Positions 19,941 to 48,530 of a stretch of 64,000 nt of DNA are shown piece by piece. The DNA is taken from assembly GCA_000993685.1 (NCBI GenBank), contig LBWP01000001.1, forward strand, positions 9,739-73,738. The letters run 5' to 3'. This DNA comes from Candidatus Woesebacteria bacterium GW2011_GWA1_39_21. Its GTDB lineage: Bacteria; Patescibacteriota; Microgenomatia; UBA8517. Numbering within the stretch: position 1 is the first letter of the stretch; each line of letters opens with the position of its first letter. The notes under the pieces were generated by a model. It worked only from the letters and a program-made list of their open reading frames with translations, had not been told where the DNA came from and made no database searches. The position numbers were made by a program, and so were the translations under genes.

Positions 19941-20264
19941 TTACGACGTAAATACGCATACATGGGGATAGAGTGTGTTTTTCCCGTCTTTTTCGCAAAG
20001 ATTATTTATTAATCTTTTATAACTTATTATTAAATTTAATTTTCTTCTCTACTTATGGTATGTCCTTCAAATATAAAAACCAAAAATAAGCCGAACAAAA
20101 TTTTAACAACCTTCGTCTCCCCCACTTTTTTATTTGATTTCGTGATATGTGCGGAAAATGCCGTAAATACGGCATATTATGCATAATAGTAAGATGATTA
20201 ATTGGTCGTCTTTAATAAATAACAGGCCTTAAAATCGATTTGGTGAAGCCGCTTTTTTGGCTAA

Positions 20265-21065: not shown

Positions 21066-21070
21066 AAAAT

Positions 21071-21103
21071 ATAGTAATGTCGCACAATGATATTGACACA
21101 CGC
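21071..21103. promoter_or_regulatory. Candidate dif-like Xer recombination site immediately upstream of xer
   Basis: AATGTCGCACAATGATATTGACACACGCC contains a palindromic core CAAT-GAT-ATTG. It lies 30 bp upstream of the xer start codon. Confidence 0.35.
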
Positions 21104-21130
21104 CTTCTTATATTTTAATATTTAACCAGA

Positions 21131-33176: not shown

Positions 33177-34952
33177 TTGATATTAAGTCATAATAGTCAT
33201 AAATATATGCCTGCCCAACCATTAAATGCTCAGAATGACCAGAATTTTTCAAACGTAGTCAAAACGTTAGCCGACATTTTACTTCTTCAGGGTTCGATTT
33301 CCCAAGAGCAGTCAAGGCAAATAAAATTTACTGAAATTCAAACCGGCAAAACCCAAGAGGAAATTGTTTTGGAGCAAGGATTTGTCGCAGAAGCGGATCT
33401 GGTTCGTGCAAAATCTAATTTGTACAATATTCCCTTTTTGGATTTGGAGACGACACCAAGTTCGCCGGAAGCTCTGTCAATCCTCCCCCAACAGGTGGCA
33501 CAGCGGTTTAGGGTATTTCCCATTTCTATTGATAAGAACTCAAAAATTCTCAACTTAGCGATGGCTGACCCTCTTGACTTAACAGCAGTTGGCTTTATCG
33601 AGCAAAAAACCGGCTATCGTGTCAAGCCCTACGCTTCGCAGCCCACCAAAATCGACACGCAGGTTACGGCGGCGTATTCGAGCTCTTTAGCTAAAGAGGT
33701 TACGGAAGCGCTCAAAGAAGTTGCTCCAGAAAAAAGACTTATCCAGGTTGTTGATAGTGGTCGCACAAGTGTCGTCCGTGAAGAAAAAGTTTCGGAAATT
33801 GTCAAACAAATTTTGAGTTTTGCTGTGAAATCGCGTGCATCAGACATCCATATTGAACCGCAAGAAAAATCGACACGTGTTCGATATCGTATCGACGGAA
33901 TTTTGCAGGAGAAATTGACCACCCCCAAGGAGCTTCACGATGGGCTTGTCTCGAGAATCAAAATCCTGTCGGGGATGAAGATTGATGAAAAACGTGTTCC
34001 CCAGGATGGTAGATTTAATTTTTCCGCGGACAATGAAGAGGTTGACCTTCGTGTATCAACCCTGCCGACCACCTGGGGGGAGAAAATTGTGATCAGGCTT
34101 TTGAAGAAAACCGGAGGGATTCCTGATCTGACAGAACTTGGACTTCGTGGCCGGGCGATGAAACACCTTGAGGATGCGATTGTCAGACCGCATGGGATTA
34201 TTTTGATTACTGGTCCGACGGGTTCAGGTAAGACGACAACACTTTATTCAATTATCCAGAGGATTAACACTCCAAAGGTCAACATTATGACACTGGAGGA
34301 TCCGATTGAGTATAAAATTGCCGGCGTCAATCAGGTGCAGGTTAATCCGGGGGCTGGTTTGACATTTGCTTCAGGATTGCGATCTTTTTTGAGGCAGGAT
34401 CCTAACGTAATTCTTGTTGGTGAAATTCGTGATCAGGAAACAGCTGACCTTGCCGTTCAGGCATCGCTCACTGGTCATTTGGTATTTTCTACTCTTCACA
34501 CGACCGATGCCTCGGGCGCACTTCCGAGGATGTTAGATATGGGTGCGGAACCTTACCTTCTCGCCTCGTCGATTACCGCAATTATGGCACAGAGAGTCTT
34601 AAGAAAAATTCACACGGCCTGCAGGATTGATTACACACCCGATGAAAAAGTCGTAATGGAAATTAAAAAAACCTTAGGGAATTTATGGAAACCAGATACG
34701 GGTGTAAAATTCTATAAAGGTCAGGGTTGCAACGAATGTGGAAACTCCGGATATTATGGCCGTGTTGGAATTTTTGAGGTCTTGCCTGTTTCCGAAAAAA
34801 TTAGTAGGCTTATATTAGAGCGTTCTTCTTCGGCTGAAATTGAAAACACTGCCAAAGAAGAAGGTATGGTTACAATGAAGCAGGATGGTTATATGAAGGT
34901 TATTGATGGGATGACGAGTCTCGAAGAAGTTCTGCGCGTTGCGCAAGAATAA
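33177..34952 (+). CDS. pilB: Type IV pilus assembly ATPase PilB (GspE family)
   Basis: It has an N-terminal T2SSE_N domain, Walker A GPTGSGKTTT, Asp and His boxes and a tetracysteine CNECGNSGYYGR. Confidence 0.93.
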   Translation: MILSHNSHKYMPAQPLNAQNDQNFSNVVKTLADILLLQGSISQEQSRQIKFTEIQTGKTQEEIVLEQGFVAEADLVRAKSNLYNIPFLDLETTPSSPEALSILPQQVAQRFRVFPISIDKNSKILNLAMADPLDLTAVGFIEQKTGYRVKPYASQPTKIDTQVTAAYSSSLAKEVTEALKEVAPEKRLIQVVDSGRTSVVREEKVSEIVKQILSFAVKSRASDIHIEPQEKSTRVRYRIDGILQEKLTTPKELHDGLVSRIKILSGMKIDEKRVPQDGRFNFSADNEEVDLRVSTLPTTWGEKIVIRLLKKTGGIPDLTELGLRGRAMKHLEDAIVRPHGIILITGPTGSGKTTTLYSIIQRINTPKVNIMTLEDPIEYKIAGVNQVQVNPGAGLTFASGLRSFLRQDPNVILVGEIRDQETADLAVQASLTGHLVFSTLHTTDASGALPRMLDMGAEPYLLASSITAIMAQRVLRKIHTACRIDYTPDEKVVMEIKKTLGNLWKPDTGVKFYKGQGCNECGNSGYYGRVGIFEVLPVSEKISRLILERSSSAEIENTAKEEGMVTMKQDGYMKVIDGMTSLEEVLRVAQE

Positions 34953-34995: not shown

Positions 34996-36057
34996 ATGAG
35001 TATCAAAGATTTGTTGGAGTTGACAATCCAAAGGCGTGCATCTGACCTGCATATTATTTGCGGTTTACCACCATACTTGAGAATTGAGGGTGTTTTAGCT
35101 CCGGTGAATAGCGCCCCAATTGTTACGCAAGATGTTGTCGACAAATATCTGAGGGAGATCCTTTCAGCTGATAACCTTGAACGATTTTATGTCAACAAGG
35201 AGCTTGACTTTTCACTGGCGTTTTCGGCCAAGGCCAGGTTTAGAGTGAACGCTTATACACAAAAGAATCAATTTGCAATTTCATTCAGGATGATTCCAAT
35301 CGAGATCTCGGCGGTCGATGATTTGGGACTTCCGAAAATCGTCCACTCATTTGCAAATTTGCGGCAAGGATTCATTCTTATAACCGGTCCGACTGGACAT
35401 GGTAAGTCAACAACGCTTGCGGCAATTCTAAACGAGATTAACCAAATCAGGGCTTGTCATATCGTTACAATTGAAGACCCAATTGAATTTGTCTTCAGAC
35501 CGAGAAATTCAATTATTTCTCAAAGAGAAATGGGTTCAGATACACTTTCTTGGCAAGTTGCACTTCGAAGCGTGCTTAGGGAAGACCCTGACGTTGTTAT
35601 GGTGGGAGAAATGCGTGATTATGAAACGGTGTCCGCTGCTCTAACGATTGCAGAAACCGGGCATTTGGTTTTTGCTACTCTGCATACTAACTCTGCTGCG
35701 CAGACGATTGACAGGATTGTTGATGTTTTTCCCGATGAGCAGCAAAAGCAGGTAAAACTTCAAATGTCAAATGTTATCGAAGCTGTGTTTTCAATGCGCT
35801 TAATTCCTGCAGTGTCTGGCGACAGAGTTGTTGCATACGAAGTAATGTTGGGAACGTCAGCTGTTAAAAGTTCTATTAGGGAAGGCAAGACGCACCAAAT
35901 TGATAACATTCTACAAACTTCGACTGAAGTGGGAATGAATACACTTGAAATGTCTTTGGCGTCACTTGTAAAAACCGGAAAGGTGACTTTTGAGACGGCA
36001 CAATCCTTCTCGTTGAGACCTGAAGAGCTAACAAGACTTGTACGTTCGAGTAAGTGA
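34996..36057 (+). CDS. pilT: Type IV pilus retraction ATPase PilT
   Basis: It has Walker A GPTGHGKSTTL and REDPDVVMVGEMRD and is about 350 aa, which is typical of PilT. Confidence 0.9.
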   Translation: MSIKDLLELTIQRRASDLHIICGLPPYLRIEGVLAPVNSAPIVTQDVVDKYLREILSADNLERFYVNKELDFSLAFSAKARFRVNAYTQKNQFAISFRMIPIEISAVDDLGLPKIVHSFANLRQGFILITGPTGHGKSTTLAAILNEINQIRACHIVTIEDPIEFVFRPRNSIISQREMGSDTLSWQVALRSVLREDPDVVMVGEMRDYETVSAALTIAETGHLVFATLHTNSAAQTIDRIVDVFPDEQQKQVKLQMSNVIEAVFSMRLIPAVSGDRVVAYEVMLGTSAVKSSIREGKTHQIDNILQTSTEVGMNTLEMSLASLVKTGKVTFETAQSFSLRPEELTRLVRSSK

Positions 36058-36114: not shown

Positions 36115-37320
36115 ATGAAAAGATTCAAATACAGGGCAAGAACAACCACGGGCGAAGTTGTTAAAGGTGAAGTTGAAGCCACAAGCGACAAGATCGCCGC
36201 TAAACTTCTGAAAAGAAAAGGATACATCATCGTTTCCATTAAACCTAAAGCCGAGTTTATTATTGATATTACAAGAAAATTTAGAGACAGAGTAACTTCA
36301 AAGGATGTCGCAAATTTTACAAGACAGTTAGCAACGATGATGAATGCGGGACTTCCGATCACCGAGTCCTTGTTAATTTTAAGAAACCAATCAACGGGAA
36401 GGCTTCAAGTAATTTTAACCGAAATTCTAAATGATGTCGAAGGTGGACACTCTCTATCATCATCGCTTGAAAAGTATCCTTCGGTTTTCAATAAGACATA
36501 TGTTGCGCTTATTAAATCGGGCGAGATCGGCGGTGTTTTGGATGCAGTATTGGCAAAACTATCCGACAGTTTGGAAAAGCAACAGGAGTTTTCAGGTAGA
36601 GTGAAAGGTGCAATGGTTTACCCTTCAATAATCGTTATTGGAATGCTAATTGTGACCTTTATCATGCTTGTCTTTGTAATCCCACGTTTGACCTCGCTGT
36701 ATGACCAGTTTGATGCAGAGCTTCCGATAACGACAAAGTTGCTTCTTGCTGTTTCTGATGCGGTGAGTAAATACTGGTATTTGGTAATTGGAGCGGGTGT
36801 GGCGATATACTATATGTTTAAACTCTATATCAAAACGAAGACCGGAAGAAAAAAATTTGACGAATTTAAATTTAAAATCCCGCTTATTGGCAGTTTACAG
36901 AGGCAAGTGATTTTAACTGATTTGACGAGAACGATTTCGCTGATGGTTGGATCGCGCGTCTCGATTCTTGAAAGTTTGTACATTACCTCCGAAGTGGCAG
37001 ATAACTCGATTATTTCTGAAGCCTTAATTGATGCCGGAAAAATGGTTGAAAAAGGTTTTCCCGTCGCTTTCTCTTTTGCAAAACATCCGGAGGCGTTTCC
37101 GCCAATCCTCTCTCAAATGATCTCCGTTGGAGAAGAAACGGGAAAAATGGATGAGGTTTTGGATAAAATATCTCATGTTTTTGAAAGTGAGAGTGACCAG
37201 AAATTGAAGGCAATCACCGCGGCAATTGAACCAATTATTTTAATCTTTTTAGGTGTTGGCGTAGCATTTTTAGTCATTTCGGTGATCATGCCGATCTACA
37301 ATTTGACATCGCAAATTTAA
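36115..37320 (+). CDS. pilC: Type IV pilus inner-membrane platform protein PilC (GspF family)
   Basis: A duplicated T2SSF domain is present with three TM segments. Confidence 0.9.
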   Translation: MKRFKYRARTTTGEVVKGEVEATSDKIAAKLLKRKGYIIVSIKPKAEFIIDITRKFRDRVTSKDVANFTRQLATMMNAGLPITESLLILRNQSTGRLQVILTEILNDVEGGHSLSSSLEKYPSVFNKTYVALIKSGEIGGVLDAVLAKLSDSLEKQQEFSGRVKGAMVYPSIIVIGMLIVTFIMLVFVIPRLTSLYDQFDAELPITTKLLLAVSDAVSKYWYLVIGAGVAIYYMFKLYIKTKTGRKKFDEFKFKIPLIGSLQRQVILTDLTRTISLMVGSRVSILESLYITSEVADNSIISEALIDAGKMVEKGFPVAFSFAKHPEAFPPILSQMISVGEETGKMDEVLDKISHVFESESDQKLKAITAAIEPIILIFLGVGVAFLVISVIMPIYNLTSQI

Positions 37321-37588: not shown

Positions 37589-38116
37589 ATGAAAAAGATA
37601 TATAAAGGCCTGACTACGCAGGCAGGTTTCACACTTATTGAGCTTCTGATTGTCATGGCAATTCTTGGTGTTTTAGCGGTTGTTGTCCTTGTTGCAATCA
37701 ATCCGGTTCAACAACTCGCAAGAACGCGTGATGCTGGAAGAAAAGCCGGTGTCGCCCAAATCGGTAGAGCATTGGAGGCTTACTATACTTCTCATAGTGG
37801 AAGCTATCTTCCTCTTTCGGACACGTTCTTAAATAGTCTTTCTACTTCGGGAGAGATTTCAACTCCTCCCAGTACGATATCATACAGAAGCGGATTTACA
37901 CCCCAAGCATGCATCAACAGTCAGAATGGGTGGTGTTATCTTATGGGTTCGGGAGAAGCCGTTTTATATACGGAATTGGAATCTGATTCGGAAAGAAGTA
38001 AATGTAGCGGTGTGGTCTCTTACTTTGTGTGGTCGACTGTTGACGGTCGTGGAGGATTGGTTTGTACAAATGTTGCAGCAGCTGGAACAGCTCAAACATG
38101 GAGCGCCCAGCAGTAA
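37589..38116 (+). CDS. pilA: Type IV pilin (prepilin with a G|FTLIELL class III signal), paralog 1
   Basis: MKKIYKGLTTQAG|FTLIELLIVMAILGVLAVVVLVAINP, with Glu at +5. The conserved C-terminal region contains LESDSERSKC...VWST.DGRGGLVC. Confidence 0.88.
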   Translation: MKKIYKGLTTQAGFTLIELLIVMAILGVLAVVVLVAINPVQQLARTRDAGRKAGVAQIGRALEAYYTSHSGSYLPLSDTFLNSLSTSGEISTPPSTISYRSGFTPQACINSQNGWCYLMGSGEAVLYTELESDSERSKCSGVVSYFVWSTVDGRGGLVCTNVAAAGTAQTWSAQQ

Positions 38117-38146
38117 CTTATTCTTAATTAGTTGAGAATAAAAATA

Positions 38147-38179
38147 ATGAGCCTGTGATAAAGCAGGCTCATTTATTTT
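38147..38179. terminator. Bidirectional intrinsic terminator between pilin 1 and the convergent GT-C gene
   Basis: ATGAGCCTG-TGATAAAG-CAGGCTCAT is followed by TTTATTTT, and by an A/T run on the other strand. Confidence 0.6.
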
Positions 38180-40037
38180 GTTCCCCAGGAGGAAGTGTCG
38201 AAAGGATGGGGTCGGTGAGGATGGATTTCACAAGGAATGACCCGTATAATTCTTCATCCTTATAATAATATTTCATAAAAAGTGCTATATTCTTGTATCC
38301 TATTGAGTAATATCTTTTCATATTTGTAAGACTGAAGCTGTAACCCACAACATCCTTGTAGGAATCATATTCTCCCAAAAGGAAATTATTGTAAATTTCA
38401 TCCTGGGCGGTTACGTAATCTTCTTTTTTGGGTACCGATTCGGCCCCAACAACAAAGTGATACACCAATCCGTGAGGTATTGTGCCCAATTTCTTATCCT
38501 GGTCATTCACGATGACCCTGGGTACAGTTGAATAAATGTTATACCCCCTTCTTATGAGATTGACGATGCAGGAATATAATGTTTCCTGATCGATCGTGTT
38601 TCTGTTTTTAATAAGATAAGTCTTTGCCTGATCGGGGTTCATGGTACCTGATTCTACAAGAAATTTCTCAAAACCGGTGTTTCTTCCGGGGATGGTGATA
38701 TCCGGTCGGAAATTTTCTTCAAGTTGGATATATAGAGTATTGAATGCAAATTCATCGTTATCAACGAATAGGAAACTTTTATTTTCCAATGGCCCCAGTA
38801 CGTCTTTTGCAAGGTTATTGCCGATGTAAATGTCGGATAGATCGGTCTTCGGGTAATTTGCAATGAAATATGATATCGGAACTAAAGCGAATGCGGCCAG
38901 CGTCAATGGATAAAATAAACGGTATAAAGGCCTCCTTTTGATGATTTTATTAAGTAATTTTGTTAATAACAAAATACCGGGACCGGAAAAAAGCAAAAGA
39001 AAAATTACGGAAGGAATGTAAAATCTTTCGATTGTTGAAATGTTAGCAAGGCTTTTGGTTTCAACTTTTGCGTAAAAAATATAAAAAGGACCGATAAAAA
39101 AAAGTGCAGTCAGTAAATAAAATAATAAAAGGCGTCTTTTTTGTTTTAGAAAATAGATTACGCCCAAAACGAAAGCAAAAGGAATAATCGGATTTAAATA
39201 CTCCTTCCAATATATGTAATAAGAATGAAAATCGTTTACAAACATGAATGGTCTGTTCTCCGTATCGATCCATCCATAGTCCTTTCGTAATATCAGATAG
39301 AGTAAATTTTTGGCCGTGACAGCCCGATCCCAGTTAACTATCGGATTTTGTGCTGCAGCTATAGGTATGTAAAGATACGGTAACAGACCCAGGATGAATA
39401 AAAATATGCAAGTCAATATTAATTTTAAATCTTTCAGGATTTTAATGTCTGTAAATAAGACCGAGAGTCCAACTGCAGGAAACATAAGCAAAACTGTCAT
39501 GTTATTTGTGAGCGATAAACCGAGGAAGAAAGACAGCGGGTACAAAAGTCTGTTTTCTTTGCTAATTATAAACTTGATTGTGATAAGTGAGATTAGAAGG
39601 ATAAAAAAAAAGTGGAGGGAAAAGACTTCTGCAACCTCTGCGTATATCCAAAAAGGATAGATAAAAGCAAGAATTAAACTTATAATAATCGATATTATTT
39701 TATTTTTTGTTAGTGTTAGTGAGATTAGATAAGTTAAGATAATGGAGAGCGATGCAAATAATGAAGATATCAATCCGACTCTCCAGGCTACTGTATGTCC
39801 CAATGGAAGTGAGTTAAAGGTAATCCCAAGAAGTATATAAAGTGGATATCCCGAAGGATGTGGAACGCCTTTTGAAATGATCGCTGAAAGAAAGTCTCCC
39901 GAATCGCCAGCAAACACGCCAGGACAAATTCCGTTAACGTATATCAAAAAAGTCGATAAAAACAAAAACAATACAATAAAATGCCCAGACAGAAACTTAA
40001 GAAGAATCTTTGTTTTACTTATTTTTTTTACTACCAT
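38169..40037 (-). CDS. DUF2723/TMEM260-like GT-C-fold membrane glycosyltransferase (putative protein O-glycosyltransferase)
   Basis: The 622-aa protein has more than 12 TM helices. The N-terminal loop GDSGDFLSAI...GVPHPSGYPLYILLG matches the WDSGEF...HPPGYPLY signature of DUF2723/GT117. Confidence 0.55.
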   Translation of the reverse strand: MVVKKISKTKILLKFLSGHFIVLFLFLSTFLIYVNGICPGVFAGDSGDFLSAIISKGVPHPSGYPLYILLGITFNSLPLGHTVAWRVGLISSLFASLSIILTYLISLTLTKNKIISIIISLILAFIYPFWIYAEVAEVFSLHFFFILLISLITIKFIISKENRLLYPLSFFLGLSLTNNMTVLLMFPAVGLSVLFTDIKILKDLKLILTCIFLFILGLLPYLYIPIAAAQNPIVNWDRAVTAKNLLYLILRKDYGWIDTENRPFMFVNDFHSYYIYWKEYLNPIIPFAFVLGVIYFLKQKRRLLLFYLLTALFFIGPFYIFYAKVETKSLANISTIERFYIPSVIFLLLFSGPGILLLTKLLNKIIKRRPLYRLFYPLTLAAFALVPISYFIANYPKTDLSDIYIGNNLAKDVLGPLENKSFLFVDNDEFAFNTLYIQLEENFRPDITIPGRNTGFEKFLVESGTMNPDQAKTYLIKNRNTIDQETLYSCIVNLIRRGYNIYSTVPRVIVNDQDKKLGTIPHGLVYHFVVGAESVPKKEDYVTAQDEIYNNFLLGEYDSYKDVVGYSFSLTNMKRYYSIGYKNIALFMKYYYKDEELYGSFLVKSILTDPILSTLPPGEQNK

Positions 40038-40816
40038 TTCTTAATGAGGAATAGGTTATTAATATATATCGATTTGGAAGAATAGTAGTTTTCTACAAGG
40101 ACGGCTAGATACGATAATAAAAGTAAGGGAATGTATAAAGGTAAAGTCAGAAAGTAGTATAGTTTGTTTTTTTGATTTAATTCAACCAAATAGTTCTCCA
40201 ATAAAGTTTCAATTGCAGATAATAAACCACCTTGTTTTTTATAATAGTGCAGCCGGCAATGGTGGAGTTTGATGAGCCGGTCAAATGTATAACGCGTAAA
40301 CCTGAAATGATCATTCGGTTCTTCATGAAGAGCCCAGAGAAAGGGTGCAGTTATTAATAAGTATCCATTTCTTTTTAATATTCTAACCATTTCATCAAAT
40401 AGTATAAACGGGTCAGTAACATGTTCAAATACCTGGAAAGCACAGACAATATCAAAGGTATTATCCTGGAAAGGGAGCTTTCCAACGAGTTTATAATTTT
40501 CAGGAAAGTATATGTTTGGTTCATCTTTAATATTTACACTTTTATTCGGTGAGAAATTGGGAAAATCAATACCTAGGTATTTTGTATTTTTAAATAAAAA
40601 TTTATATGGTTTTTCTCCGCAACCAACATCCAGTAATTTTCCTTTTAGTTTATATTTTTTAACAACATATCCGATGTCTTTGCGCAAGAAATATCTTTGT
40701 GAAAAATGAGGTATTGTATAAAAAAGAAATTCATCTGTGAGGCTTTTACTCATATAATGTTTGTGATGTAAATAGTTTACAGTTAAAATCAGATTAATGA
40801 AAATAGCATTTTTCAC
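40031..40816 (-). CDS. Class I SAM-dependent methyltransferase
   Basis: Motif I is LLDVGCGEKPY, followed by ILKRNGYLLITAP. Confidence 0.75.
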   Translation of the reverse strand: MKNAIFINLILTVNYLHHKHYMSKSLTDEFLFYTIPHFSQRYFLRKDIGYVVKKYKLKGKLLDVGCGEKPYKFLFKNTKYLGIDFPNFSPNKSVNIKDEPNIYFPENYKLVGKLPFQDNTFDIVCAFQVFEHVTDPFILFDEMVRILKRNGYLLITAPFLWALHEEPNDHFRFTRYTFDRLIKLHHCRLHYYKKQGGLLSAIETLLENYLVELNQKNKLYYFLTLPLYIPLLLLSYLAVLVENYYSSKSIYINNLFLIKKW

Positions 40817-41954
40817 TTATACCAGACTCGAATATGGAGGCGGTGTTGCAAAATACTATATCGAGACGGCCTCAGGTTTAGCGAAAAGATATAAGAATTT
40901 GAAGATCGATATTATTAGTTTTGAAAAAAAGACGTTAAGAAAATTTCTTTTATTATATTTTTTATATTTTTTCGGGAAGCAGGATATGGACCAAAAAGAT
41001 AAGGAAAATATTATTTCGATCAAGAAAAAATTGGGCTTCGCCGGTTACTATCAATACAATTTTAAAAGTTTACTTAAAAAACTTAAAGGTTACGATTTGA
41101 TTTATACGACTAACAATTTATTGGAGGTTATGCTATTTAAATATTTGATTGGTTACCGACATATACCGCCTATTGTTTATGGATTCCACATCCCCATGTA
41201 TTATGAGTTTACCAGTTCACTGCAATCGAAAATTCATAATTTACTATATCGATCGCCATTATATATTAAGGCTCTGAAGGGAGCTAAAGTACTTCATGTG
41301 ATGAATACCTTTGATGAAGATATTATTAAAGATAAGTTTAATATTCATAATGTCAAAAAGATCTATTATGCGTTTAATTTTGATCAATTCGCAAAAGTTG
41401 TCTTTGAATATAAACCTCCTTACAAATGGAATAAACTCCGAACAAATATTTTATGGACAGGAAGGTTGACCGAACAGAAAGGCATAGATAAACTTTTTGA
41501 GATAATCGAAGGTGTTAATGCCGGAAAATGCGGTAAAAAAATTATATGGAATATATTTGGCGACGGTGAGCTTAAAGACAGGGTTCGCGCATTTTCATTG
41601 AAGCATAAAAATGTCAGTTTTTTTGGATACGTGGAAAATCGTTTTATGGCAGACATTATGAACAAATGCGATTTTTTTATTTCAACAAGCAATTGGGAAA
41701 GCTTCCCGTATAATATCTTAGAAGCACAGGCTTTCGGACTCCCTGTTGTTTGTTTTGATATCAGTGGTTGCAATGATATTGTTAAGGATGGGGTAAATGG
41801 ATATCTGGTAACCGACACCGCCGAATTTAAAAAACGGATTAACGATATTGTTATAAAAAATAAGTTTAAAAAAGAGAAGATACGAAATTATATTGTTTCG
41901 CGATTTAATTTCGAGGATTTGTTTTCGAAAATGTATCGATTATTCACAGAATGA
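40797..41954 (+). CDS. Glycosyltransferase family 4 (GT-B, retaining)
   Basis: A C-terminal GT1/GT4 domain is present (GRLTEQKGIDKLFE). The E-x7-E region is FPYNILEAQAFGLPVVCFDISG. Confidence 0.85.
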   Translation: MKIAFFTYTRLEYGGGVAKYYIETASGLAKRYKNLKIDIISFEKKTLRKFLLLYFLYFFGKQDMDQKDKENIISIKKKLGFAGYYQYNFKSLLKKLKGYDLIYTTNNLLEVMLFKYLIGYRHIPPIVYGFHIPMYYEFTSSLQSKIHNLLYRSPLYIKALKGAKVLHVMNTFDEDIIKDKFNIHNVKKIYYAFNFDQFAKVVFEYKPPYKWNKLRTNILWTGRLTEQKGIDKLFEIIEGVNAGKCGKKIIWNIFGDGELKDRVRAFSLKHKNVSFFGYVENRFMADIMNKCDFFISTSNWESFPYNILEAQAFGLPVVCFDISGCNDIVKDGVNGYLVTDTAEFKKRINDIVIKNKFKKEKIRNYIVSRFNFEDLFSKMYRLFTE

Positions 41955-42457
41955 AAAAATATAATTTAGGTTGCGGTAAAAAGTATATCAAAGGTTACAT
42001 CAACGTAGATGTAACACGGTCTGTTAAGGCAGACCTCTATTTCAATTTAAATAAATTCCCTTACCCAATTAAAAAGAAATCGGCTGACGAGGTTTTGATG
42101 GATAACGTTCTTGAACACTTGGATGATGTAGTATTGGTTATGGAAGAAATATATCGGATTCTAAAGCCAGGTGGTATTGTTAAAATTTATTTGCCTTATG
42201 CGAAGTCGGACGGTGCTTTGCAGGACCCTACACATAAACATCTGTTTACAGAAAAAAGCATGGATTATTTTAGACAAGATGATAAATATAATTATTATAC
42301 AAATGCAAAATTTCGTATATTGGTGAGTAAACCTTTTAACGCAAATAAAACACTCTTAAGTAAAATGCGAGTCTTTATCCCATTCAAACCTGTTCTCAAA
42401 TATTTCTTATTAAATATTTACGATGGTTTATATTTCGAAATGAAAGCGGTTAAGTAA
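41951..42457 (+). CDS. Class I SAM-dependent methyltransferase (Methyltransf_11-like)
   Basis: KKYNLGCGKKYIKGYINVDV...LEHLDD...ILKPGGIV. Confidence 0.75.
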   Translation: MKKYNLGCGKKYIKGYINVDVTRSVKADLYFNLNKFPYPIKKKSADEVLMDNVLEHLDDVVLVMEEIYRILKPGGIVKIYLPYAKSDGALQDPTHKHLFTEKSMDYFRQDDKYNYYTNAKFRILVSKPFNANKTLLSKMRVFIPFKPVLKYFLLNIYDGLYFEMKAVK

Positions 42458-43367
42458 TTGTCGATTTTGGGTTTTTTGAAGAGGTAACAATCTTCCACAC
42501 ACTATGGTCACGAAGTTTGTAAGTTACATCAAGATAACCAAAAATTCTCGCAATAATTTCCAGAATAACAGTAAATGCAGAAAAGATAAGTTCTTTGGCG
42601 TTGAAATTTAGTGTTGATAAAAATACGGGTAATATTAAAAAGTTAGAGAAAGTTATCACCTCATAGCCGTAATGGAGTTTTGTTTCATAATGCCCGGCAA
42701 AGATTCTTCGCCTTTGGCTTAAGAGTTCCCTGATCGTTTTCGGACCGCTATTGTAAACAATGGCTTTCTCTTCATAAATAACTTTATAATCCTGGAGTTT
42801 GATTAACGGCTCAATACTTGCTTCGTCAACGGCGGTATTTGGGGGAATCCGTTTGAAAACCTTTTTAAATGCTATCAACTCACCTACTTTTGGCCGTTCC
42901 GGAAATTTGAGATTAACAAGATGATGAAGTTTCCACTTTAGTTGGTTTGCGAAACCGCAAAATGTGTCCGGATTATCTGTTGGAATCACTTTGCCGCCGA
43001 CCATTCCGACACTTTTGTTCTTTAATTTATTCAAGAGTAGGAAATAGCATTTTTTATCTAATATCGTGTCAGCGCTTTGGAGTATCAGATATTTAGATTT
43101 TGCATATTTGATGAACAAGTTGACTGCCTTGGCTTTTCCTTCTCTGTTTACCTGAATAATCAGTCTGATTTTTTTATTTTTCTTTTTAAGCTTCTTGATA
43201 ATACTTACGGTATTATCCGTGCACCCCGACGCAATAATTAAAATCTCTCTAATCGAAAATTCGCTACCCAGCTCTTGTTTAGTAATTGATTTTATTAAAT
43301 TAGTAATATTTTCTTCTTCATTATAGGCGCAAATACCGATACTGAAATGAATTTTTACTTTTTCCAT
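42450..43367 (-). CDS. Glycosyltransferase family 2 (GT-A)
   Basis: FSIGICAYNEEENI...ASGCTDNT plus a DxD-like QSADTILD. Confidence 0.85.
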   Translation of the reverse strand: MEKVKIHFSIGICAYNEEENITNLIKSITKQELGSEFSIREILIIASGCTDNTVSIIKKLKKKNKKIRLIIQVNREGKAKAVNLFIKYAKSKYLILQSADTILDKKCYFLLLNKLKNKSVGMVGGKVIPTDNPDTFCGFANQLKWKLHHLVNLKFPERPKVGELIAFKKVFKRIPPNTAVDEASIEPLIKLQDYKVIYEEKAIVYNSGPKTIRELLSQRRRIFAGHYETKLHYGYEVITFSNFLILPVFLSTLNFNAKELIFSAFTVILEIIARIFGYLDVTYKLRDHSVWKIVTSSKNPKSTIT

Positions 43368-43470: not shown

Positions 43471-44100
43471 ATGAATAAACGTTATATTAAAGGACCAGAG
43501 GCGGGCGGATTTACGCTAATAGAGCTTCTTATTGTCATGGCGATCCTCGGTGTTTTAGCGGTTGTTGTCCTTGTTGCAATCAATCCGGTTCAACAACTTG
43601 CAAGAACTCGTGATGCAGGAAGAAAATCCGGTGTTTCTCAAGTTGGACGTGCTTTAGAAGCATTTTATACTTCCCATGGGGGAAAATATTTGTATGGAAG
43701 GACAGCTGGTTCAAATCCTGGTACCAACTGTAACACAGACGGTAACCAAGTTTTTTCTGATGCTGACGACTGGCTAACATGTTTAGTAAATACAGGAGAA
43801 ATTTCAACAGAACCAGGATTGATTAATTACTCTGTAGCTGGAACTGGTGTATGTACAATAGGGGCTCAATATTCATCGGAACAAAATGGTCTATGTTATA
43901 CGGTTAGTTCAGCTGACGATGAAGCTGTTGTTTATGCCAGGCTCGAATCTGACTCCGAACGAAGTAAATGTCCAGACTCAGGTGGGCCTTTCCAACCATT
44001 TTTTGTTTGGTCGACACGTGATGGTAGAGGTGGGTTGGTTTGCATAGCAGGCATCAATGTTCCAGCCCCAGGTGCACAAAATTGGAACCCGCAACAATAA
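43471..44100 (+). CDS. Type IV pilin, paralog 2
   Basis: MNKRYIKGPEAGG|FTLIELLIVMAILGVLAVVVLVAINPVQQLARTRDAGRK. It has a 50-nt stretch of perfect DNA identity with paralog 1 (GGTGTTTTAGCGGTTGTTGTCCTTGTTGCAATCAATCCGGTTCAACAACT). The central region has diverged. Confidence 0.88.
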   Translation: MNKRYIKGPEAGGFTLIELLIVMAILGVLAVVVLVAINPVQQLARTRDAGRKSGVSQVGRALEAFYTSHGGKYLYGRTAGSNPGTNCNTDGNQVFSDADDWLTCLVNTGEISTEPGLINYSVAGTGVCTIGAQYSSEQNGLCYTVSSADDEAVVYARLESDSERSKCPDSGGPFQPFFVWSTRDGRGGLVCIAGINVPAPGAQNWNPQQ

Positions 44101-44697: not shown

Positions 44698-45513
44698 ATG
44701 TCTGAAATCTTTCTGATAGTCTCCCTTGCTCTTTTTGGATTAGTTTTCGGCTCTTTTATCACAGCTCTATCTTATCGCAGTATACGCGGTGTAAGTATTT
44801 TTAAAGGAAGATCTCTCTGCCCTCTATGTAAAAAGAAAATTTCTTGGAGTGACAATATTCCAATCATTTCCTATTTGTCACTGAATGGTAAGTCGCGTTG
44901 TTGTGGAAAACCAATCTCTTGGCGCTACCCTTTGATCGAATTTTTTACAATGTTGACTTTTTTGTTAATCGGCCTCGTCTATACAAATTGCAGCACTGTA
45001 ACTCCGCCGTTATGCGTACTTAACAACACCTTTTCTTTTTTAGTTCTCCCCTATCTACTTCTGATTTCGCTTTTTTTAATTACCGTTTTTATAACTGACT
45101 TTGAGCACAAGATTATCCTTGACGAATTTATATTTATTCCTTACGGGCTCACACTACTGTTGTTGATTTTTTTTAACCCGGAGTTTTCGTACACTAATAT
45201 TTTCTTATCGTTTACTTGCGCAGCATTTCTTCTTTTGGTCCATTTAATTACTCGTGGAAAAGGGATGGGTCTTGGTGATGTCAAACTTGCACTTCTGCCG
45301 CCATTGATTCTCGGTTGGCCATTTACTTTGCCATGGCTATTTTTGTCTTTTATCATCGGCGCTTTGGTAGGTGTAATTTTGATGCTTATGAAAAAGGCAA
45401 AATTTGGAAAACAAATTCCATTCGGGCCGTTTTTGATTTTAGCCTTCTTTTTAGTATTATTCTGGGGTGATAAATTGATGTTTTTATTTGGTTTTTTGAC
45501 ACTCTCACCGTGA
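44698..45513 (+). CDS. pilD: Prepilin peptidase PilD (A24 family)
   Basis: An N-terminal tetracysteine (CPLCKKK...CCGKPISWRYPLIE) and a polytopic C-terminal A24 domain are present. Confidence 0.9.
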   Translation: MSEIFLIVSLALFGLVFGSFITALSYRSIRGVSIFKGRSLCPLCKKKISWSDNIPIISYLSLNGKSRCCGKPISWRYPLIEFFTMLTFLLIGLVYTNCSTVTPPLCVLNNTFSFLVLPYLLLISLFLITVFITDFEHKIILDEFIFIPYGLTLLLLIFFNPEFSYTNIFLSFTCAAFLLLVHLITRGKGMGLGDVKLALLPPLILGWPFTLPWLFLSFIIGALVGVILMLMKKAKFGKQIPFGPFLILAFFLVLFWGDKLMFLFGFLTLSP

Positions 45514-46976: not shown

Positions 46977-47516
46977 ATGCAGCTTTCTGTATTTAAAAAA
47001 TATATAAAAATTACCCGTGGTTTTTCCATGATCGAACTTTTAGTAGTGATGTCAATAATTGGACTTATGGCAACATTTGGTGTTATGACATACCCCGGTG
47101 TGCAAAAAAATTCCCGTGACACAAAAAGAAGGTCGGATTTAAAACAGTACCAGACTTCACTAGAGTCGTTTGCAAACAGCAAGGGTGGCTTTTATCCTTC
47201 AAGAACCTCTCAAACTTATGCTTCGGATATGTCAGGCAATGCAGGAGACCCAGATTTATGCACGGACATGGGTCTTTCCCAGTGTCCGGTTGACCCCAAA
47301 AAAAGTTACACAATCTGTGCCGGAGCAGGTGTTTGCGAATATTATTATTGGTCTAACGGAACAAATACTACACCTACGGCCACAAGCTATGTTTTGTATT
47401 CACGTTTGGAGAATAAGGTTAATGATAATTATGTTTTTTTTGTGATATGCGGTAGTGGCGTATCGGGCACGGTTGTATCTAGTAGCTGGACCCCAAGCGC
47501 GACGTGTCCTTTGTAA
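46977..47516 (+). CDS. Pilin-like protein (G|FSMIELLVV)
   Basis: It carries the prepilin N-terminal methylation motif and SRDTKRRSDLKQYQTSLESF. Confidence 0.8.
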   Translation: MQLSVFKKYIKITRGFSMIELLVVMSIIGLMATFGVMTYPGVQKNSRDTKRRSDLKQYQTSLESFANSKGGFYPSRTSQTYASDMSGNAGDPDLCTDMGLSQCPVDPKKSYTICAGAGVCEYYYWSNGTNTTPTATSYVLYSRLENKVNDNYVFFVICGSGVSGTVVSSSWTPSATCPL

Positions 47517-47545
47517 ATTTGATTTTAATAATCTATATTTAATAT

Positions 47546-48007
47546 ATGAACGCTCGAGTTATTAAAAATGGATTTACTTTGATAGAACTATTAGTAGTAG
47601 TGTCGATTATGGTAATTTTAATTGGTCTTTCGGCTTTTGGTCTGCAACAAGCCCGTGAGAGTGCGCGTGATGGACAGCGCAAAGCCAATCTTGAAACAAT
47701 CAGAACCGGACTTTCGTTTTATAAAGCCGATTGCAATGTTTATCCAACACCAAACGCCTCAACCACAACAAAACTGGGTACAAGTTTGATTGGAAACGCA
47801 ACTATCTGTGGCGGATCTGCCAACACATATATTCAAAAAATGCCAACAGATCCCGTTTCCGGCAGAAATTATTATTATTCGCAGAGTGGTTCAACGTATA
47901 AGATTTGCGCCGGACTTGAAGGAGAAACGTCAGCAGACGCAAACTGCGCATTTCCGATAAGTTGCGGTTCTGGAGTTACTTGCAGTTACTCGGTTGCCAA
48001 TCCTTAG
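47546..48007 (+). CDS. Pilin-like protein (G|FTLIELLVVV)
   Basis: MNARVIKNGFTLIELLVV followed by ARESARDGQRKANLETIRTGLSFY. Confidence 0.8.
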   Translation: MNARVIKNGFTLIELLVVVSIMVILIGLSAFGLQQARESARDGQRKANLETIRTGLSFYKADCNVYPTPNASTTTKLGTSLIGNATICGGSANTYIQKMPTDPVSGRNYYYSQSGSTYKICAGLEGETSADANCAFPISCGSGVTCSYSVANP

Positions 48008-48011
48008 ATGA

Positions 48012-48530
48012 ATGAAAATACACCTGCCGAAAAAGCGAGCTTCTGGTTATACAATAATTGAACTTATTATTTCAATCTTCATTTTGATTTTGATTTTTAC
48101 GGTCGCGCAGACTAATTATCGTGGGTATATTTTGAATAAAAGTCTGGATGCCGCCAGAAGCCAGATGATTTCCGACATCAGGCTTGCACAGGAATATGCT
48201 TTAGCCGGAAGAAAATCATTAACTTGCAGTGGACTTAATGGTTACACCTTTACTCTAAATGCTGCAAGTAATGCTACAAGCTATTTAGTGAGGGCGAGCT
48301 GCGGAGGCAGTTTTGAAACTGTGAAAAGTGTCTCTTTATCAAAAATTGCCACGAATGTGACTGCAAATTACAGCGGAAGTACTGGCACGACTAACGGGAT
48401 TCTTTTTAAAATTCTTGGTCAGGGAAACGACATCTCAACCACAAATACAAATGTGGTAATTACGCTTAGTCAAGAAACGTCGGGCTATTCACGCGCGATA
48501 ACGATTTCGCAAGGTGGAGAAATAAAATGA
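48012..48530 (+). CDS. Minor pilin / pseudopilin-like protein (G|YTIIELI, FimT/GspH-like)
   Basis: A prepilin-type N-terminus with Glu at +5. Confidence 0.6.
   Translation: MKIHLPKKRASGYTIIELIISIFILILIFTVAQTNYRGYILNKSLDAARSQMISDIRLAQEYALAGRKSLTCSGLNGYTFTLNAASNATSYLVRASCGGSFETVKSVSLSKIATNVTANYSGSTGTTNGILFKILGQGNDISTTNTNVVITLSQETSGYSRAITISQGGEIK

What the first reader, a model, noticed from the sequence alone, without database searches (positions are those of the whole stretch)
38169..43367. Five-gene glycan modification island embedded between paralogous pilin genes: candidate pilin O-glycosylation and O-methylation system built on a DUF2723/TMEM260-like GT-C enzyme
A block of five non-pilus genes interrupts a contiguous type IV pilus locus. 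They are a 622-aa polytopic DUF2723/GT117 (TMEM260-like) GT-C membrane glycosyltransferase, a GT4, a GT2 and two class I SAM methyltransferases, in mixed orientation. The block sits between pilin paralog 1 (ends 38116) and pilin paralog 2 (starts 43471). GT-C enzymes transfer sugars from lipid-linked donors to proteins on the outer face of the membrane. The eukaryotic TMEM260 homolog is a protein O-mannosyltransferase. The position inside the pilus locus implies that the pilins are the substrates. The two methyltransferases suggest methylated sugars. The known pilin glycosylation systems use TfpO/PilO or PglL O-oligosaccharyltransferases. A DUF2723-based system would be a different enzymology. 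No PilQ secretin was found in the window, which suggests the pili cross the envelope without one.
Basis: partly seen in the sequence, partly recalled or inferred. Interest (0 to 1): 0.8.

Follow-up and report, generated by a model that had tools for sequence, protein, structure and literature searches.

The report
Pilus-linked TMEM260-like glycosyltransferase cassette in CPR bacteria
A bacterial relative of the human protein O-mannosyltransferase TMEM260 sits next to the main pilin gene in this Woesebacteria genome and in many other ultra-small (CPR) bacteria, alongside a fast-changing set of sugar-building and sugar-decorating genes, so these bacteria most likely coat their type IV pili with variable sugars.

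Summary
Five genes lie between pilin 1 and pilin 2 of a complete, secretin-less type IV pilus locus of Ca. Woesebacteria GW2011_GWA1_39_21: a TMEM260-like GT-C, two methyltransferase-like genes, a GT4 and a membrane GT2.

- **The GT-C is a true TMEM260 homologue.** It scores E = 4.6e-32 against the solved human enzyme, and 9.5e-82 as a family profile. All six functionally tested residues are conserved, and the predicted fold matches only GT-C enzymes.
- **The GT-C is a conserved part of the pilus locus, not an insertion.** In 23 of the 32 closest species representatives, a pilin ORF lies within 350 bp of it (most under 100 bp). About 45 non-CPR homologues show no such link.
- **Only the accessory genes vary.** Ten Woesebacteria-type loci carry ten different low-GC cassettes: GT2, GT4, fusions, four methyltransferase types and one sulfotransferase.

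Best reading (about 0.6): extracytoplasmic O-glycosylation of pilins from a polyprenyl-phosphate-linked, variably decorated sugar.

The missing secretin is already known to be normal for CPR. No biochemical evidence exists. This is a new variant of a known kind.

The parts
33207..34952 (+). PilB assembly ATPase (the ORF extends to a TTG at 33177)
   Evidence: PF00437 T2SSE E = 8e-131 plus MshEN. Gene call on an identical contig.
34996..36057 (+). PilT retraction ATPase
   Evidence: PF00437 E = 5e-43.
36115..37320 (+). PilC platform protein
   Evidence: PF00482 T2SSF E = 7e-57, two stretches.
37589..38116 (+). Pilin 1, the candidate major pilin and the proposed glycosylation substrate
   Evidence: N_methyl/TIGR02532 prepilin motif. 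It is followed by a strong terminator. Orthologues hold the same position in 10 related loci.
38146..38173 (.). Bidirectional intrinsic terminator hairpin between the convergent pilin 1 and GT-C genes
   Evidence: Stem of 10-11 bp with T-runs on both strands.
38169..40037 (-). TMEM260-like (PF11028/DUF2723, CAZy GT117-type) GT-C glycosyltransferase. It has about 11 TM helices, an extracytoplasmic alpha/beta domain and a helical C-terminal domain.
   Evidence: Pfam 84.8 bits. PDB 9rql E = 4.6e-32; family profile E = 9.5e-82. D45, H60, R251, Y254, R338 and D428 conserved. AF2 pLDDT 90.5 with GT-C-only fold hits.
40031..40753 (-). MT1, a class I SAM methyltransferase with a C-terminal hydrophobic segment. 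It overlaps the GT-C start by 7 bp. The ORF extends to a GTG at 40816.
   Evidence: Methyltransf_11 E = 1.3e-13. PDB methyltransferases E = 3e-7. TM prediction. 240-aa gene call.
40797..41954 (+). GT4 (GT-B fold) soluble glycosyltransferase
   Evidence: Glycos_transf_1 E = 1e-26. Only sub-threshold NCBIfam hits. No TM segment.
41951..42457 (+). MT2, a small (168 aa) methyltransferase-like protein that overlaps the GT4 stop by 4 bp
   Evidence: Methyltransf_11 E = 2.4e-8, C-terminal half of the profile only. Weak PDB hits.
42450..43367 (-). Membrane-anchored GT2 with a minimal cellulose-synthase-like GT-A fold and two C-terminal TM helices. Proposed to start the lipid-linked glycan.
   Evidence: PF00535 E = 1.5e-24. 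AF2 pLDDT 91.2. Best folds are PcManGT 6yv7 and hyaluronan synthases, with GtrB/ArnC weaker. Orthologues lie in the cassettes of L004, L094 and L096.
43471..44100 (+). Pilin 2, a paralogue of pilin 1 at 65% identity
44103..44633 (+). Pilin 3, 45% identical to pilin 1
44698..45513 (+). PilD prepilin peptidase
   Evidence: PF06750 and PF01478.
46977..48530 (+). Three minor pilin genes (46977-47516, 47546-48007, 48012-48530)
   Evidence: N_methyl, T2SSG and GspH hits.
50537..51547 (+). PilM-like actin-fold pilus alignment protein
   Evidence: The positional orthologue in L095 carries PF11104 PilM_2. Homologues recur at the end of CPR pilus loci.

Best explanation
This is a pilin O-glycosylation module built into a CPR type IV pilus locus.

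Proposed steps:
1. At the cytoplasmic face, the membrane GT2 loads a sugar onto a polyprenyl phosphate.
2. The GT4 may add a second sugar, and MT1 and MT2 methylate the lipid-linked glycan. In other genomes the decorating enzymes are different methyltransferases or a sulfotransferase.
3. An unidentified flippase moves the lipid-linked glycan outward.
4. The TMEM260-like GT-C transfers the glycan to Ser/Thr hydroxyls of pilins. Its active site faces outward, with D45 aligning the donor and D428 acting as general base. The pilins (pilin 1, and probably pilins 2 and 3) are still membrane-anchored and extended at that point, before or during pilus assembly.

The conserved GT-C combined with a rapidly swapped, low-GC accessory cassette would give each lineage a different pilus glycan. 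This is analogous to O-antigen or flagellin glycan diversity, and it is relevant to host recognition and phage evasion.

What is shown: gene identities, homology to TMEM260, conservation of the catalytic residues, the GT-C fold, conserved pilin adjacency across CPR, and cassette variability.

What is inferred: the pilin as acceptor, O-linkage, the identity of the sugar, the order of cytoplasmic steps, the role of the GT2 as initiating enzyme, and the biological purpose of the diversity.
For: (1) Homology and catalytic competence.
- PF11028 at 84.8 bits.
- Human TMEM260 structure 9rql: E = 4.6e-32 over residues 25-452, and E = 9.5e-82 with the family profile.
- The residues shown by mutagenesis and cryo-EM to bind Dol-P-Man or to catalyse transfer are D52, H67, R264, Y267, R355 and D441 (preprint 10.64898/2026.03.17.711096). 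They map to D45, H60, R251, Y254, R338 and D428.
- Across 26 family members, D45, H60, R251 and D428 are 26/26. Y254 is 25/26. R338 is R or K in 25/26.

(2) Fold and topology.
- AF2 pLDDT 90.5 and pTM 0.91.
- Every significant PDB match is a GT-C enzyme: PglB, STT3, ArnT, ALG9/12, DPY19, PMT, AftB, Emb.
- The N-terminus is Lys-rich (positive-inside rule), which places D45 and the C-terminal domain outside the membrane.

(3) Linkage to pilins.
- In 23 of the 32 closest species representatives, a pilin ORF lies within 350 bp of the GT-C; most are under 100 bp.
- 29 of the 32 have a pilin or pilus-machinery gene within about 5 kb.
- Most of the exceptions lack upstream flank.
- The usual gene order is PilB-PilT-PilC-pilin-GTC-(0-3 genes)-PilD-minor pilins-PilM.
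- The lineages titled as Woese-, Levy-, Gottesman-, Curtiss- and Buchananbacteria and Paceibacterota are covered.
- Among ranks 33-80, the three loci adjacent to a pilin are also CPR (L043, L047, L055). The other 45 have no adjacent pilin or pilus gene. They are almost all from other phyla: Verrucomicrobiota, Acidobacteriota, Elusimicrobiota, Planctomycetota and deltaproteobacteria.

(4) Cassette behaviour.
- Ten Woesebacteria-type loci share the frame pilin1 | GT-C + cassette | pilin2/3-PilD. Each has a different accessory content, and each has at least one membrane GT2.
- Low GC recurs in the five loci measured.

(5) Precedent.
- TfpW is a GT-C with a TPR tail, encoded directly after pilA, that O-glycosylates pilin from a polyprenyl-P-sugar.
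Against: - No experimental data exist for any bacterial PF11028 protein.
- No flippase and no sugar-nucleotide biosynthesis gene is present in the island or anywhere in the window.
- The GT2 resembles PcManGT and hyaluronan synthases more than the known polyprenyl-P-sugar synthases GtrB and ArnC. Its role as donor synthase is therefore unproven.
- TMEM260-type enzymes use monosaccharide-P-lipid donors. This fits poorly with a cassette that appears to build more than one sugar.
- The window protein's own C-terminal 195 residues give no TPR or other Pfam hit.
- No acceptor motif conserved across CPR pilins was found.
- Gene adjacency cannot separate pilin-specific glycosylation from general glycosylation.
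- Saccharibacteria homologues (L029, L071) show no pilus context in the flank available.
Confidence: 0.6

Rival explanations
1. The GT-C is a general protein O-glycosyltransferase. Like Neisseria PglL, it would modify many secreted or surface proteins, with pilins being only one client or even a minor one. On this view it sits in the pilus operon for co-expression or for historical reasons.
For: - PglL-type systems target pilin plus many other proteins, and pglL is not linked to pilE (text).
- Family members carry TPR domains, which in TMEM260 bind extended peptides.
- CPR genomes are small and may have a single protein glycosylation enzyme.
Against: Tight, near-universal placement directly after the major pilin gene across CPR classes is what dedicated pilin enzymes such as TfpO and TfpW show. 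It is not the pattern of general OTases.
Confidence: 0.17
2. The GT-C and cassette decorate a non-protein envelope polymer through a GtrABC/CsbB-YfhO-type three-component route. The polymer could be teichoic-acid-like, a lipoglycan or a wall polysaccharide. The modification would be needed for the pilus to pass through, or anchor in, the CPR cell wall.
For: - Many GT-C enzymes (ArnT, YfhO, Emb/Aft, GtrC) act on lipids or polysaccharides, and structural hits include ArnT, AftB and Emb.
- Other CPR pilus loci carry a second polytopic protein with weak YfhO, PMT_2 or PIG-V similarity.
- The cassette content resembles polysaccharide clusters.
Against: - The closest characterised homologue by far is a protein O-mannosyltransferase. 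The general base D441 (D428 here), which deprotonates a Thr hydroxyl, is invariant.
- Non-CPR homologues are not linked to pilus genes, while CPR ones are fixed beside the pilin gene itself rather than beside wall-synthesis genes.
- Family members carry peptide-binding TPR modules.
Confidence: 0.15
3. The five genes are a horizontally acquired exopolysaccharide or capsule island that landed by chance inside the pilus locus and has no functional tie to pili.
For: Low GC (0.31-0.36) relative to the flanks, and mixed gene orientation.
Against: - The GT-C occupies the same slot in every related locus examined, and in CPR classes far from Woesebacteria.
- No polymerase, export or chain-length genes are present.
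- All strains of this species carry the same arrangement.
Confidence: 0.03

Closest known systems
Human TMEM260 (CAZy GT117), an ER protein O-mannosyltransferase for IPT domains of plexins, cMET and RON
   Same: - Significant full-length homology of the membrane core (E = 4.6e-32; profile E = 9.5e-82).
- About 11 TM helices in a GT-C fold, followed by an extracytoplasmic alpha/beta domain and a helical C-terminal domain.
- All six functionally tested residues are conserved, including the donor-aligning Asp and the general-base Asp.
   Different: - Bacterial (CPR), roughly 100 residues shorter, and about 25-30% identical.
- The C-terminal domain of the window protein has no detectable TPR signature.
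- The presumed lipid carrier is a bacterial polyprenyl phosphate rather than dolichol.
- The presumed acceptor is a type IV pilin rather than an IPT domain.
- It is accompanied by glycan-building and glycan-decorating genes. The TMEM260 O-mannose, in contrast, is a terminal modification that is not extended.
Pseudomonas aeruginosa TfpW (group IV pilin D-arabinofuranosyl transferase)
   Same: - A polytopic GT-C enzyme of about 620-650 aa with about 11 TM helices and a periplasmic C-terminal TPR-type domain.
- Encoded immediately next to the major pilin gene.
- Uses a polyprenyl-phosphate-linked sugar and modifies several Ser/Thr residues of pilin.
- This is the nearest match in how the system would work.
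   Different: - TfpW is described as distantly Emb/ArnT-like with a DDX motif. The CPR enzyme has D-S-G-D and belongs to PF11028.
- The TfpW donor pathway (DprE1/E2-type D-Araf genes) is unrelated to the GT2/GT4/MT cassette and is encoded elsewhere.
- TfpW works in a diderm with a secretin-dependent pilus.
- Sequence relatedness between TfpW and PF11028 could not be tested here.
PglL / TfpO (PilO) / TfpM O-oligosaccharyltransferases (Wzy_C family)
   Same: They perform extracytoplasmic O-glycosylation of pilins from lipid-linked donors. tfpO also lies directly after pilA.
   Different: - A different protein family and fold. The window protein has no Wzy_C hit.
- They transfer Und-PP-linked oligosaccharides borrowed from O-antigen or pgl pathways.
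Three-component periplasmic glycosylation systems (GtrA/GtrB/GtrC; CsbB/GtcA/YfhO; ArnC/ArnEF/ArnT), and the Haloferax Agl pathway (AglJ GT2 on Dol-P, further GTs, AglP methyltransferase, AglB GT-C). The Agl comparison rests on my own knowledge.
   Same: The logic is shared: a membrane GT2 charges a polyprenyl monophosphate, optional further cytoplasmic GTs and a SAM methyltransferase act on the lipid-linked glycan, and a GT-C enzyme transfers it outside the membrane. Sub-threshold NCBIfam hits of the GT2 to AglJ and of the GT4 to Agl16 are only hints.
   Different: - No GtrA, GtcA or ArnEF-type flippase is present in the island.
- The GT2 is closer in fold to PcManGT and hyaluronan synthases than to GtrB or ArnC.
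- The acceptor would be a protein Ser/Thr rather than O-antigen, LTA, lipid A or Asn.

Membership tests
TMEM260-like / DUF2723 (Pfam PF11028; CAZy GT117) | Significant match to the family HMM above the curated threshold | tested here: met
   84.8 bits against a gathering cutoff of 24.2, E = 8e-24, profile positions 1-175 of 179.
TMEM260-like / DUF2723 (Pfam PF11028; CAZy GT117) | Homology to experimentally characterised TMEM260 across the whole GT-C core | tested here: met
   PDB 9rql: E = 4.6e-32 over residues 25-452. Family profile: E = 9.5e-82.
TMEM260-like / DUF2723 (Pfam PF11028; CAZy GT117) | Catalytic and donor-binding residues (human D52, H67, R264, Y267, R355, D441) | tested here: met
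   D45, H60, R251, Y254, R338 and D428 are present. They are invariant or nearly so in 26 homologues.
TMEM260-like / DUF2723 (Pfam PF11028; CAZy GT117) | GT-C fold with about 11 TM helices and an extracytoplasmic C-terminal module (Rossmann-like plus TPR) | tested here: inconclusive
   The GT-C fold is confirmed. The model shows an alpha/beta segment at about 420-530 and about 5 helices at 538-613, and the family profile matches TPR proteins. However, the window protein's C-terminus has no Pfam or TPR hit, and the TMEM260 structure was not in the fold library.
TMEM260-like / DUF2723 (Pfam PF11028; CAZy GT117) | Protein O-mannosyl transfer from a polyprenyl-P-mannose donor | not testable with these tools
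   This needs biochemistry. Only the conservation of the sugar- and phosphate-contacting residues is known.
TfpW-type pilin GT-C glycosyltransferases | GT-C enzyme encoded immediately adjacent to the major pilin gene | tested here: met
   There are 52 bp between the pilin 1 stop and the GT-C stop in the window. The spacing is under 100 bp in most CPR loci.
TfpW-type pilin GT-C glycosyltransferases | DDX motif in the first periplasmic loop, and sequence relatedness to TfpW or Emb | tested here: not met
   Loop 1 reads G-D45-S-G-D48, not DDX. Emb proteins are only marginal fold hits (E = 0.1-0.4). No TfpW sequence was available for direct comparison.
PglL/TfpO O-oligosaccharyltransferases (Wzy_C) | Wzy_C (O-antigen ligase-like) domain | tested here: not met
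   PF11028 is the only Pfam family at E <= 0.01. No ligase or polymerase appears among the fold hits.
PMT/POMT protein O-mannosyltransferases (GT39) | PMT and PMT_4TMC domains with a luminal MIR domain | tested here: not met
   No PMT or MIR hit. Pmt1/2/4 align only over about 250 columns at TM about 0.27.
Three-component polyprenyl-P-sugar systems (GtrB/ArnC/DPM1-type GT2 + flippase + GT-C) | A GtrB/ArnC/DPM1-type polyprenyl-phosphate glycosyltransferase | tested here: inconclusive
   The GT2 has the right size and two C-terminal TM helices. GtrB and ArnC are hits (E about 1e-11, TMq 0.44-0.49), but PcManGT and hyaluronan synthases match better (TMq 0.58-0.69).
Three-component polyprenyl-P-sugar systems (GtrB/ArnC/DPM1-type GT2 + flippase + GT-C) | A small GtrA/ArnEF-type flippase encoded with the system | tested here: not met
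   The island is fully occupied by the five genes. No such family was found among the window ORFs scanned. ORFs shorter than 250 aa outside the locus were not scanned.

The most novel reading that the evidence does not exclude
TMEM260-like GT-C enzymes are an ancestral, near-universal core component of the type IV pilus machinery in the Microgenomates and Parcubacteria branches of CPR. They act as dedicated pilin O-glycosyltransferases on still-unfolded pilins. The adjacent hypervariable cassette (methyl, sulfate, extra sugars) writes a lineage-specific glycan code on the pilus, and that code governs host recognition and phage evasion in these episymbionts. The metazoan disease gene TMEM260 would then descend from a bacterial filament-glycosylating enzyme family.
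Probability: 0.35. Interest if true: 0.8.

Novelty: new variant of a known kind. Interest (0 to 1): 0.66.

Why it matters
- **First functional context for bacterial PF11028.** No bacterial PF11028/GT117 protein has a known function. The only statement found in the searched literature is 'distant homologs in bacteria'. A fixed position beside the major pilin gives this family a concrete, testable substrate. It also connects a human congenital-disease enzyme to a prokaryotic process.
- **Relevance to CPR biology.** Type IV pili are central to how CPR/Patescibacteria attach to hosts. Yet pilin glycosylation in this group is described only as 'unexplored', with no enzyme named (PMC11623550).
- **A source of surface variation.** A conserved transferase with a swappable decoration cassette would be a new source of surface-glycan diversity in a superphylum that makes up a large share of bacterial diversity.
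- **Possible tool.** It could also add a new O-glycosyltransferase scaffold for glycoengineering.

Tried and rejected
- **AFDB50 fold search** (to look for TfpW-like or annotated neighbours): the library was unavailable.
- **Fold search against PDB:** the library did not contain the TMEM260 entry, so the structural comparison is only with other GT-C families.
- **Metagenome scan with the single GT-C sequence:** it returned only one extra locus. Pre-annotated contigs of individual homologues were used instead.
- **C-terminal 195 residues against Pfam at E <= 10:** no hit.
- **NCBIfam:** no model matched the GT-C, and only sub-threshold, uninformative hits were found for the GT2, GT4 and MTs.
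- **GT2 as a GtrB-like donor synthase:** not confirmed by sequence or by fold.
- **GT2 + GT4 as a split version of the GT2-GT4 fusions in sister loci:** only weak similarity (30-34% over about 90 residues). They are not simple orthologues.
- **Conserved acceptor motif in GT-C-adjacent pilins across CPR:** none is evident. An invariant Ser-Thr (S149/T150) exists only within the Woesebacteria pilins.
- **Strain-level cassette swapping:** all contigs carrying the identical PilC have the identical island.
- **Promoter scan:** not above the shuffled background (35 found against 27.9 +/- 5.8), so it was not used.
- **Rejected readings:** O-antigen ligase or polymerase, and a chance EPS island.

Full report
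**1. Observation**

The five ORFs are present exactly as described.

| ORF | Size | Pfam result |
|---|---|---|
| 38169-40037(-) | 622 aa | PF11028 'TMEM260-like', 84.8 bits against a cutoff of 24.2; no other family at E <= 0.01 |
| 40031-40816(-) | 261 aa | Methyltransf_11, E = 1.3e-13 |
| 40797-41954(+) | 385 aa | GT4 (Glycos_transf_1), E = 1e-26 |
| 41951-42457(+) | 168 aa | C-terminal half of Methyltransf_11 only, E = 2.4e-8 |
| 42450-43367(-) | 305 aa | GT2, E = 1.5e-24 |

- The 168-aa ORF has an N-terminal LGCG...NVD motif, readable in the sequence.
- Upstream are PilB, PilT, PilC and a prepilin at 37589-38116.
- Downstream are two more prepilins, PilD, several minor pilins and a PilM-like gene.
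- Pilins 1 and 2 are 65% identical. Pilin 3 is 45% identical to pilin 1.
- GC falls to 0.31-0.36 over the five genes, against 0.39-0.47 for the pilus genes other than membrane PilD at 0.37.
- A 10-11-bp hairpin with T-runs on both strands lies at 38146-38173, between the convergent pilin 1 and GT-C genes.
- Gene callers on identical public contigs start MT1 at the internal ATG (40031-40753, 240 aa) and pilin 3 at 44103.
- None of the window's ORFs of 250 aa or more is a secretin. The rest of the window is housekeeping: gyrA, gyrB, dnaB, tRNA synthetases, H+-PPase, recG and a PBP.

**2. Source organism**

The GT2 is 100% identical to a protein of 'Candidatus Woesebacteria bacterium GW2011_GWA1_39_21'. 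Contigs with the identical PilC come from Rifle groundwater metagenomes. The organism belongs to CPR/Patescibacteria (Microgenomates). Absence of PilQ is already described as a general CPR property consistent with a non-diderm envelope (PMC6744442). That part of the finding is ordinary.

**3. The 622-aa protein**

- It aligns with the cryo-EM-solved human TMEM260 (9rql) over residues 25-452 at E = 4.6e-32.
- A profile of 26 family members reaches E = 9.5e-82, and its C-terminal positions match TPR proteins.
- The TMEM260 structure preprint (10.64898/2026.03.17.711096) identifies the key residues. D52, H67, Y267 and R355 contact the mannose. R264 contacts the phosphate. D441 acts as the general base. 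Mutating D52, H67, R264 or Y267 abolishes activity, and R355A reduces it to about 20%.
- Counting through the alignment, these residues correspond to D45, H60, Y254, R338, R251 and D428.
- Conservation in the 26-sequence alignment:

| Window residue | Conservation |
|---|---|
| D45, H60, R251, D428 | 26/26 |
| Y254 | 25/26 |
| R338 | R or K in 25/26 |

- The AF2 model is confident (pLDDT 90.5, pTM 0.91). It shows about 11 TM helices, then an alpha/beta segment (about 420-530) and about five helices (538-613).
- All significant PDB fold matches are GT-C enzymes: PglB, STT3, ArnT, ALG9/12, DPY19, PMTs, AftB and Emb. None is an O-antigen ligase or polymerase.
- The Lys-rich N-terminus before TM1 places D45 and the C-terminal domains outside the membrane.
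- One weakness remains. The window protein's own C-terminal 195 residues give no Pfam or TPR hit.

**4. Linkage to pili**

This is the key result.

Close relatives at 52-56% identity (L001, L003, L004) have the GT-C in exactly the same slot of the same locus: holB-gyrB | PilB-PilT-PilC-pilin1 | GT-C + accessory genes | pilin2-pilin3-PilD.

A scan of one genome per species returned 80 loci. I annotated them with the window's pilus proteins and a prepilin motif:
- Among the 32 closest representatives, 23 have a pilin ORF within 350 bp of the GT-C; most are under 100 bp.
- 29 of the 32 have a pilin or pilus-machinery gene within about 5 kb.
- Most exceptions lack upstream flank (for example L025, L028, L029, L033).
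- The usual order is PilB-PilT-PilC-pilin-GTC-(0-3 genes)-PilD-minor pilins-PilM, on one strand.
- The records are titled Woese-, Levy-, Gottesman-, Curtiss- and Buchananbacteria, Paceibacterota and 'Patescibacteria group'.
- Many 'uncultured Gammaproteobacteria' MAGs carry the same CPR-type synteny.
- Among ranks 33-80, the three loci adjacent to a pilin are again CPR (L043, L047, L055).
- The other 45 have no adjacent pilin or pilus gene. They are almost all from other phyla: Verrucomicrobiota, Acidobacteriota, Elusimicrobiota, Planctomycetota, deltaproteobacteria and others.

A random gene in a genome of about 1 Mb with 10-20 pilin genes would neighbour a pilin a few percent of the time (my estimate). 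The GT-C is therefore a conserved member of CPR pilus loci, not an inserted island.

**5. The accessory genes**

Ten Woesebacteria-type loci share the frame, but their cassettes all differ.

| Locus | Cassette content |
|---|---|
| window | GT2 + MT + GT4 + MT |
| L001 | GT2-GT4 fusion + Methyltransf_24 |
| L003 | Methyltransf_21 (RfbT-like) + GT2 + fusion |
| L004 | two MTs + two GT2s |
| L005 | GT2 + fusion |
| L092 | fusion + MT |
| L093 | GT2 + sulfotransferase |
| L094 | two unknowns + MT + two GT2s |
| L095 | fusion only |
| L096 | Methyltransf_21 + GT2 + Methyltransf_25 + two GT2s |

- Every cassette has at least one membrane GT2 of the Glyco_tranf_2_3 type.
- The window's GT2 has 55-62% identical orthologues in L004, L094 and L096.
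- The other accessory genes are only distantly related between loci.
- Low GC recurs in the five loci measured.
- Within the species the island is invariant.
- This pattern of a fixed transferase with swappable, low-GC glycan genes is what O-antigen, capsule and flagellin-glycan loci show (established knowledge).
- The GT2 model (pLDDT 91.2) is closest to PcManGT and hyaluronan synthases. GtrB and ArnC match less well.
- The GT2 is thus a membrane-anchored, lipid-proximal GT-A, but its acceptor is not established.
- MT1 has a C-terminal hydrophobic segment, which is consistent with acting at the membrane.

**6. Mechanism proposed**

Shown: gene identities, TMEM260 homology, catalytic residues, fold and topology, pilin linkage, and cassette variability.

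Inferred:
1. The GT2 charges a polyprenyl phosphate with a sugar.
2. The GT4 may extend the glycan, and the MTs methylate it while it is still lipid-linked at the cytoplasmic face.
3. An unidentified flippase exports it.
4. The GT-C transfers it to Ser/Thr of membrane-anchored, not yet assembled pilins.

Conservation of the residues that contact the mannose and the single phosphate in TMEM260 favours a monophosphate-linked hexose-type donor. This sits uneasily with a multi-GT cassette. Archaeal Agl pathways do build short oligosaccharides and methylate them on dolichol monophosphate before GT-C transfer (my own knowledge).

S149/T150 is invariant in all three pilin groups of four Woesebacteria genomes. 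It is a speculative acceptor site. No motif is shared across CPR pilins.

**7. Rival explanations**

| Rival | Weight | Comment |
|---|---|---|
| General protein O-glycosylation with pilins among the clients | about 0.17 | Cannot be excluded by genomics |
| Decoration of a non-protein envelope polymer needed for pilus passage | about 0.15 | Disfavoured by the protein-specific nature of the only characterised homologue and the invariant general base; weakly supported by second GT-C-like proteins (weak YfhO, PMT_2, PIG-V hits) in other CPR pilus loci |
| Chance EPS island | about 0.03 | Contradicted by the synteny |

**8. Comparison with known systems**

- By homology, the enzyme is a member of the TMEM260/DUF2723 family (see the membership table).
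- In how it would work, the closest system is P. aeruginosa TfpW. TfpW is a 646-aa, 11-TM GT-C with a periplasmic TPR domain. It is encoded immediately downstream of pilA, uses a polyprenyl-P-D-Araf donor and modifies several pilin Ser/Thr residues.
A pilin-adjacent GT-C is a known kind.
- What is new: the GT-C family (GT117-type, with no bacterial function known), the phylogenetic breadth (CPR-wide, embedded in the pilus operon), the monoderm-like secretin-less context, and the co-located hypervariable cassette.
- The searched literature gave no report of DUF2723/PF11028 function in bacteria.
- It also gave no CPR pilin glycosyltransferase. The Saccharibacteria T4P study only predicts possible sites and calls the process unexplored. 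A 2026 CPR pilus preprint notes an unidentified modification on a serine of a non-T4P pilin.

**9. Verdict**

Three corrections apply:
- The GT-C is a core locus component rather than an island.
- TfpW was overlooked.
- The missing secretin is ordinary for CPR.

Novelty: new variant of a known kind. Interest is about 0.66. The substrate hypothesis is strong and directly testable, and it links a human disease enzyme family to pili of a major uncultured radiation. It still rests on genomic inference alone.

Noticed in passing
L018:11919-14171(-), L019:12024-14174(-), L027:11895-14051(-), L030:7535-9769(-); L015:11224-12420(+), L026:10249-11394(+), L035:11979-13124(+): In Gottesmanbacteria-type and other CPR pilus loci, the gap between the TMEM260-like gene and PilD holds a second polytopic membrane protein. 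It is either about 720-750 aa (weak YfhO hit in L018) or about 380-400 aa (weak PMT_2 hit in L015, PIG-V mannosyltransferase hit in L035). This may be a second GT-C-type enzyme acting on the same substrate.
   Followed up: partly
L093:7005-7946(-): One cassette carries a sulfotransferase (PF00685/PF13469) between the GT2 and the GT-C, where other loci have methyltransferases. This hints at sulfated pilus glycans in some lineages.
   Followed up: no
L088:4305-6181(-): In one groundwater sample, the otherwise identical GT-C gene is called as two pieces (534 + 85 aa). This is either a frameshift or pseudogene variant in the population, or an assembly error.
   Followed up: no
L006, L007, L009-L012, L015, L017, L026, L028, L031, L035, L036, L047, L048 (record titles): Many TPA_asm MAGs titled 'uncultured Gammaproteobacteria bacterium' carry the CPR-type holB-gyrB-PilBTC-pilin-GTC synteny and CPR-like pilins. 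Their taxonomic labels are probably placeholders or errors.
   Followed up: no
L044:7758-13900: An Elusimicrobia contig has three DUF2723 paralogues in tandem and no pilus genes nearby. Outside CPR, the family has clearly been put to other, unknown uses.
   Followed up: no
window 42450-42457, 40031-40037 and 41951-41954: Gene ends overlap within the island. MT2 and GT2 are convergent and overlap by 8 bp. MT1 and the GT-C overlap by 7 bp. GT4 and MT2 overlap by 4 bp. The island therefore splits into three tightly packed transcription units in mixed orientation.
   Followed up: partly
window 20001-22087: A tyrosine recombinase (Phage_integrase family, 21131-22087) follows a low-GC kilobase (0.328 at 20-21 kb) that holds an ORF without Pfam hits (20265-21065). 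This may be XerC/D, or a small integrated element.
   Followed up: no
L028:2698-5787(-): In one CPR locus, three ORFs of about 340 aa separate the GT-C from PilD. The one scanned (L028:2698-3723) is a C-5 cytosine DNA methylase (E = 3e-62). A restriction-modification-type insertion may have landed in the variable slot.
   Followed up: partly
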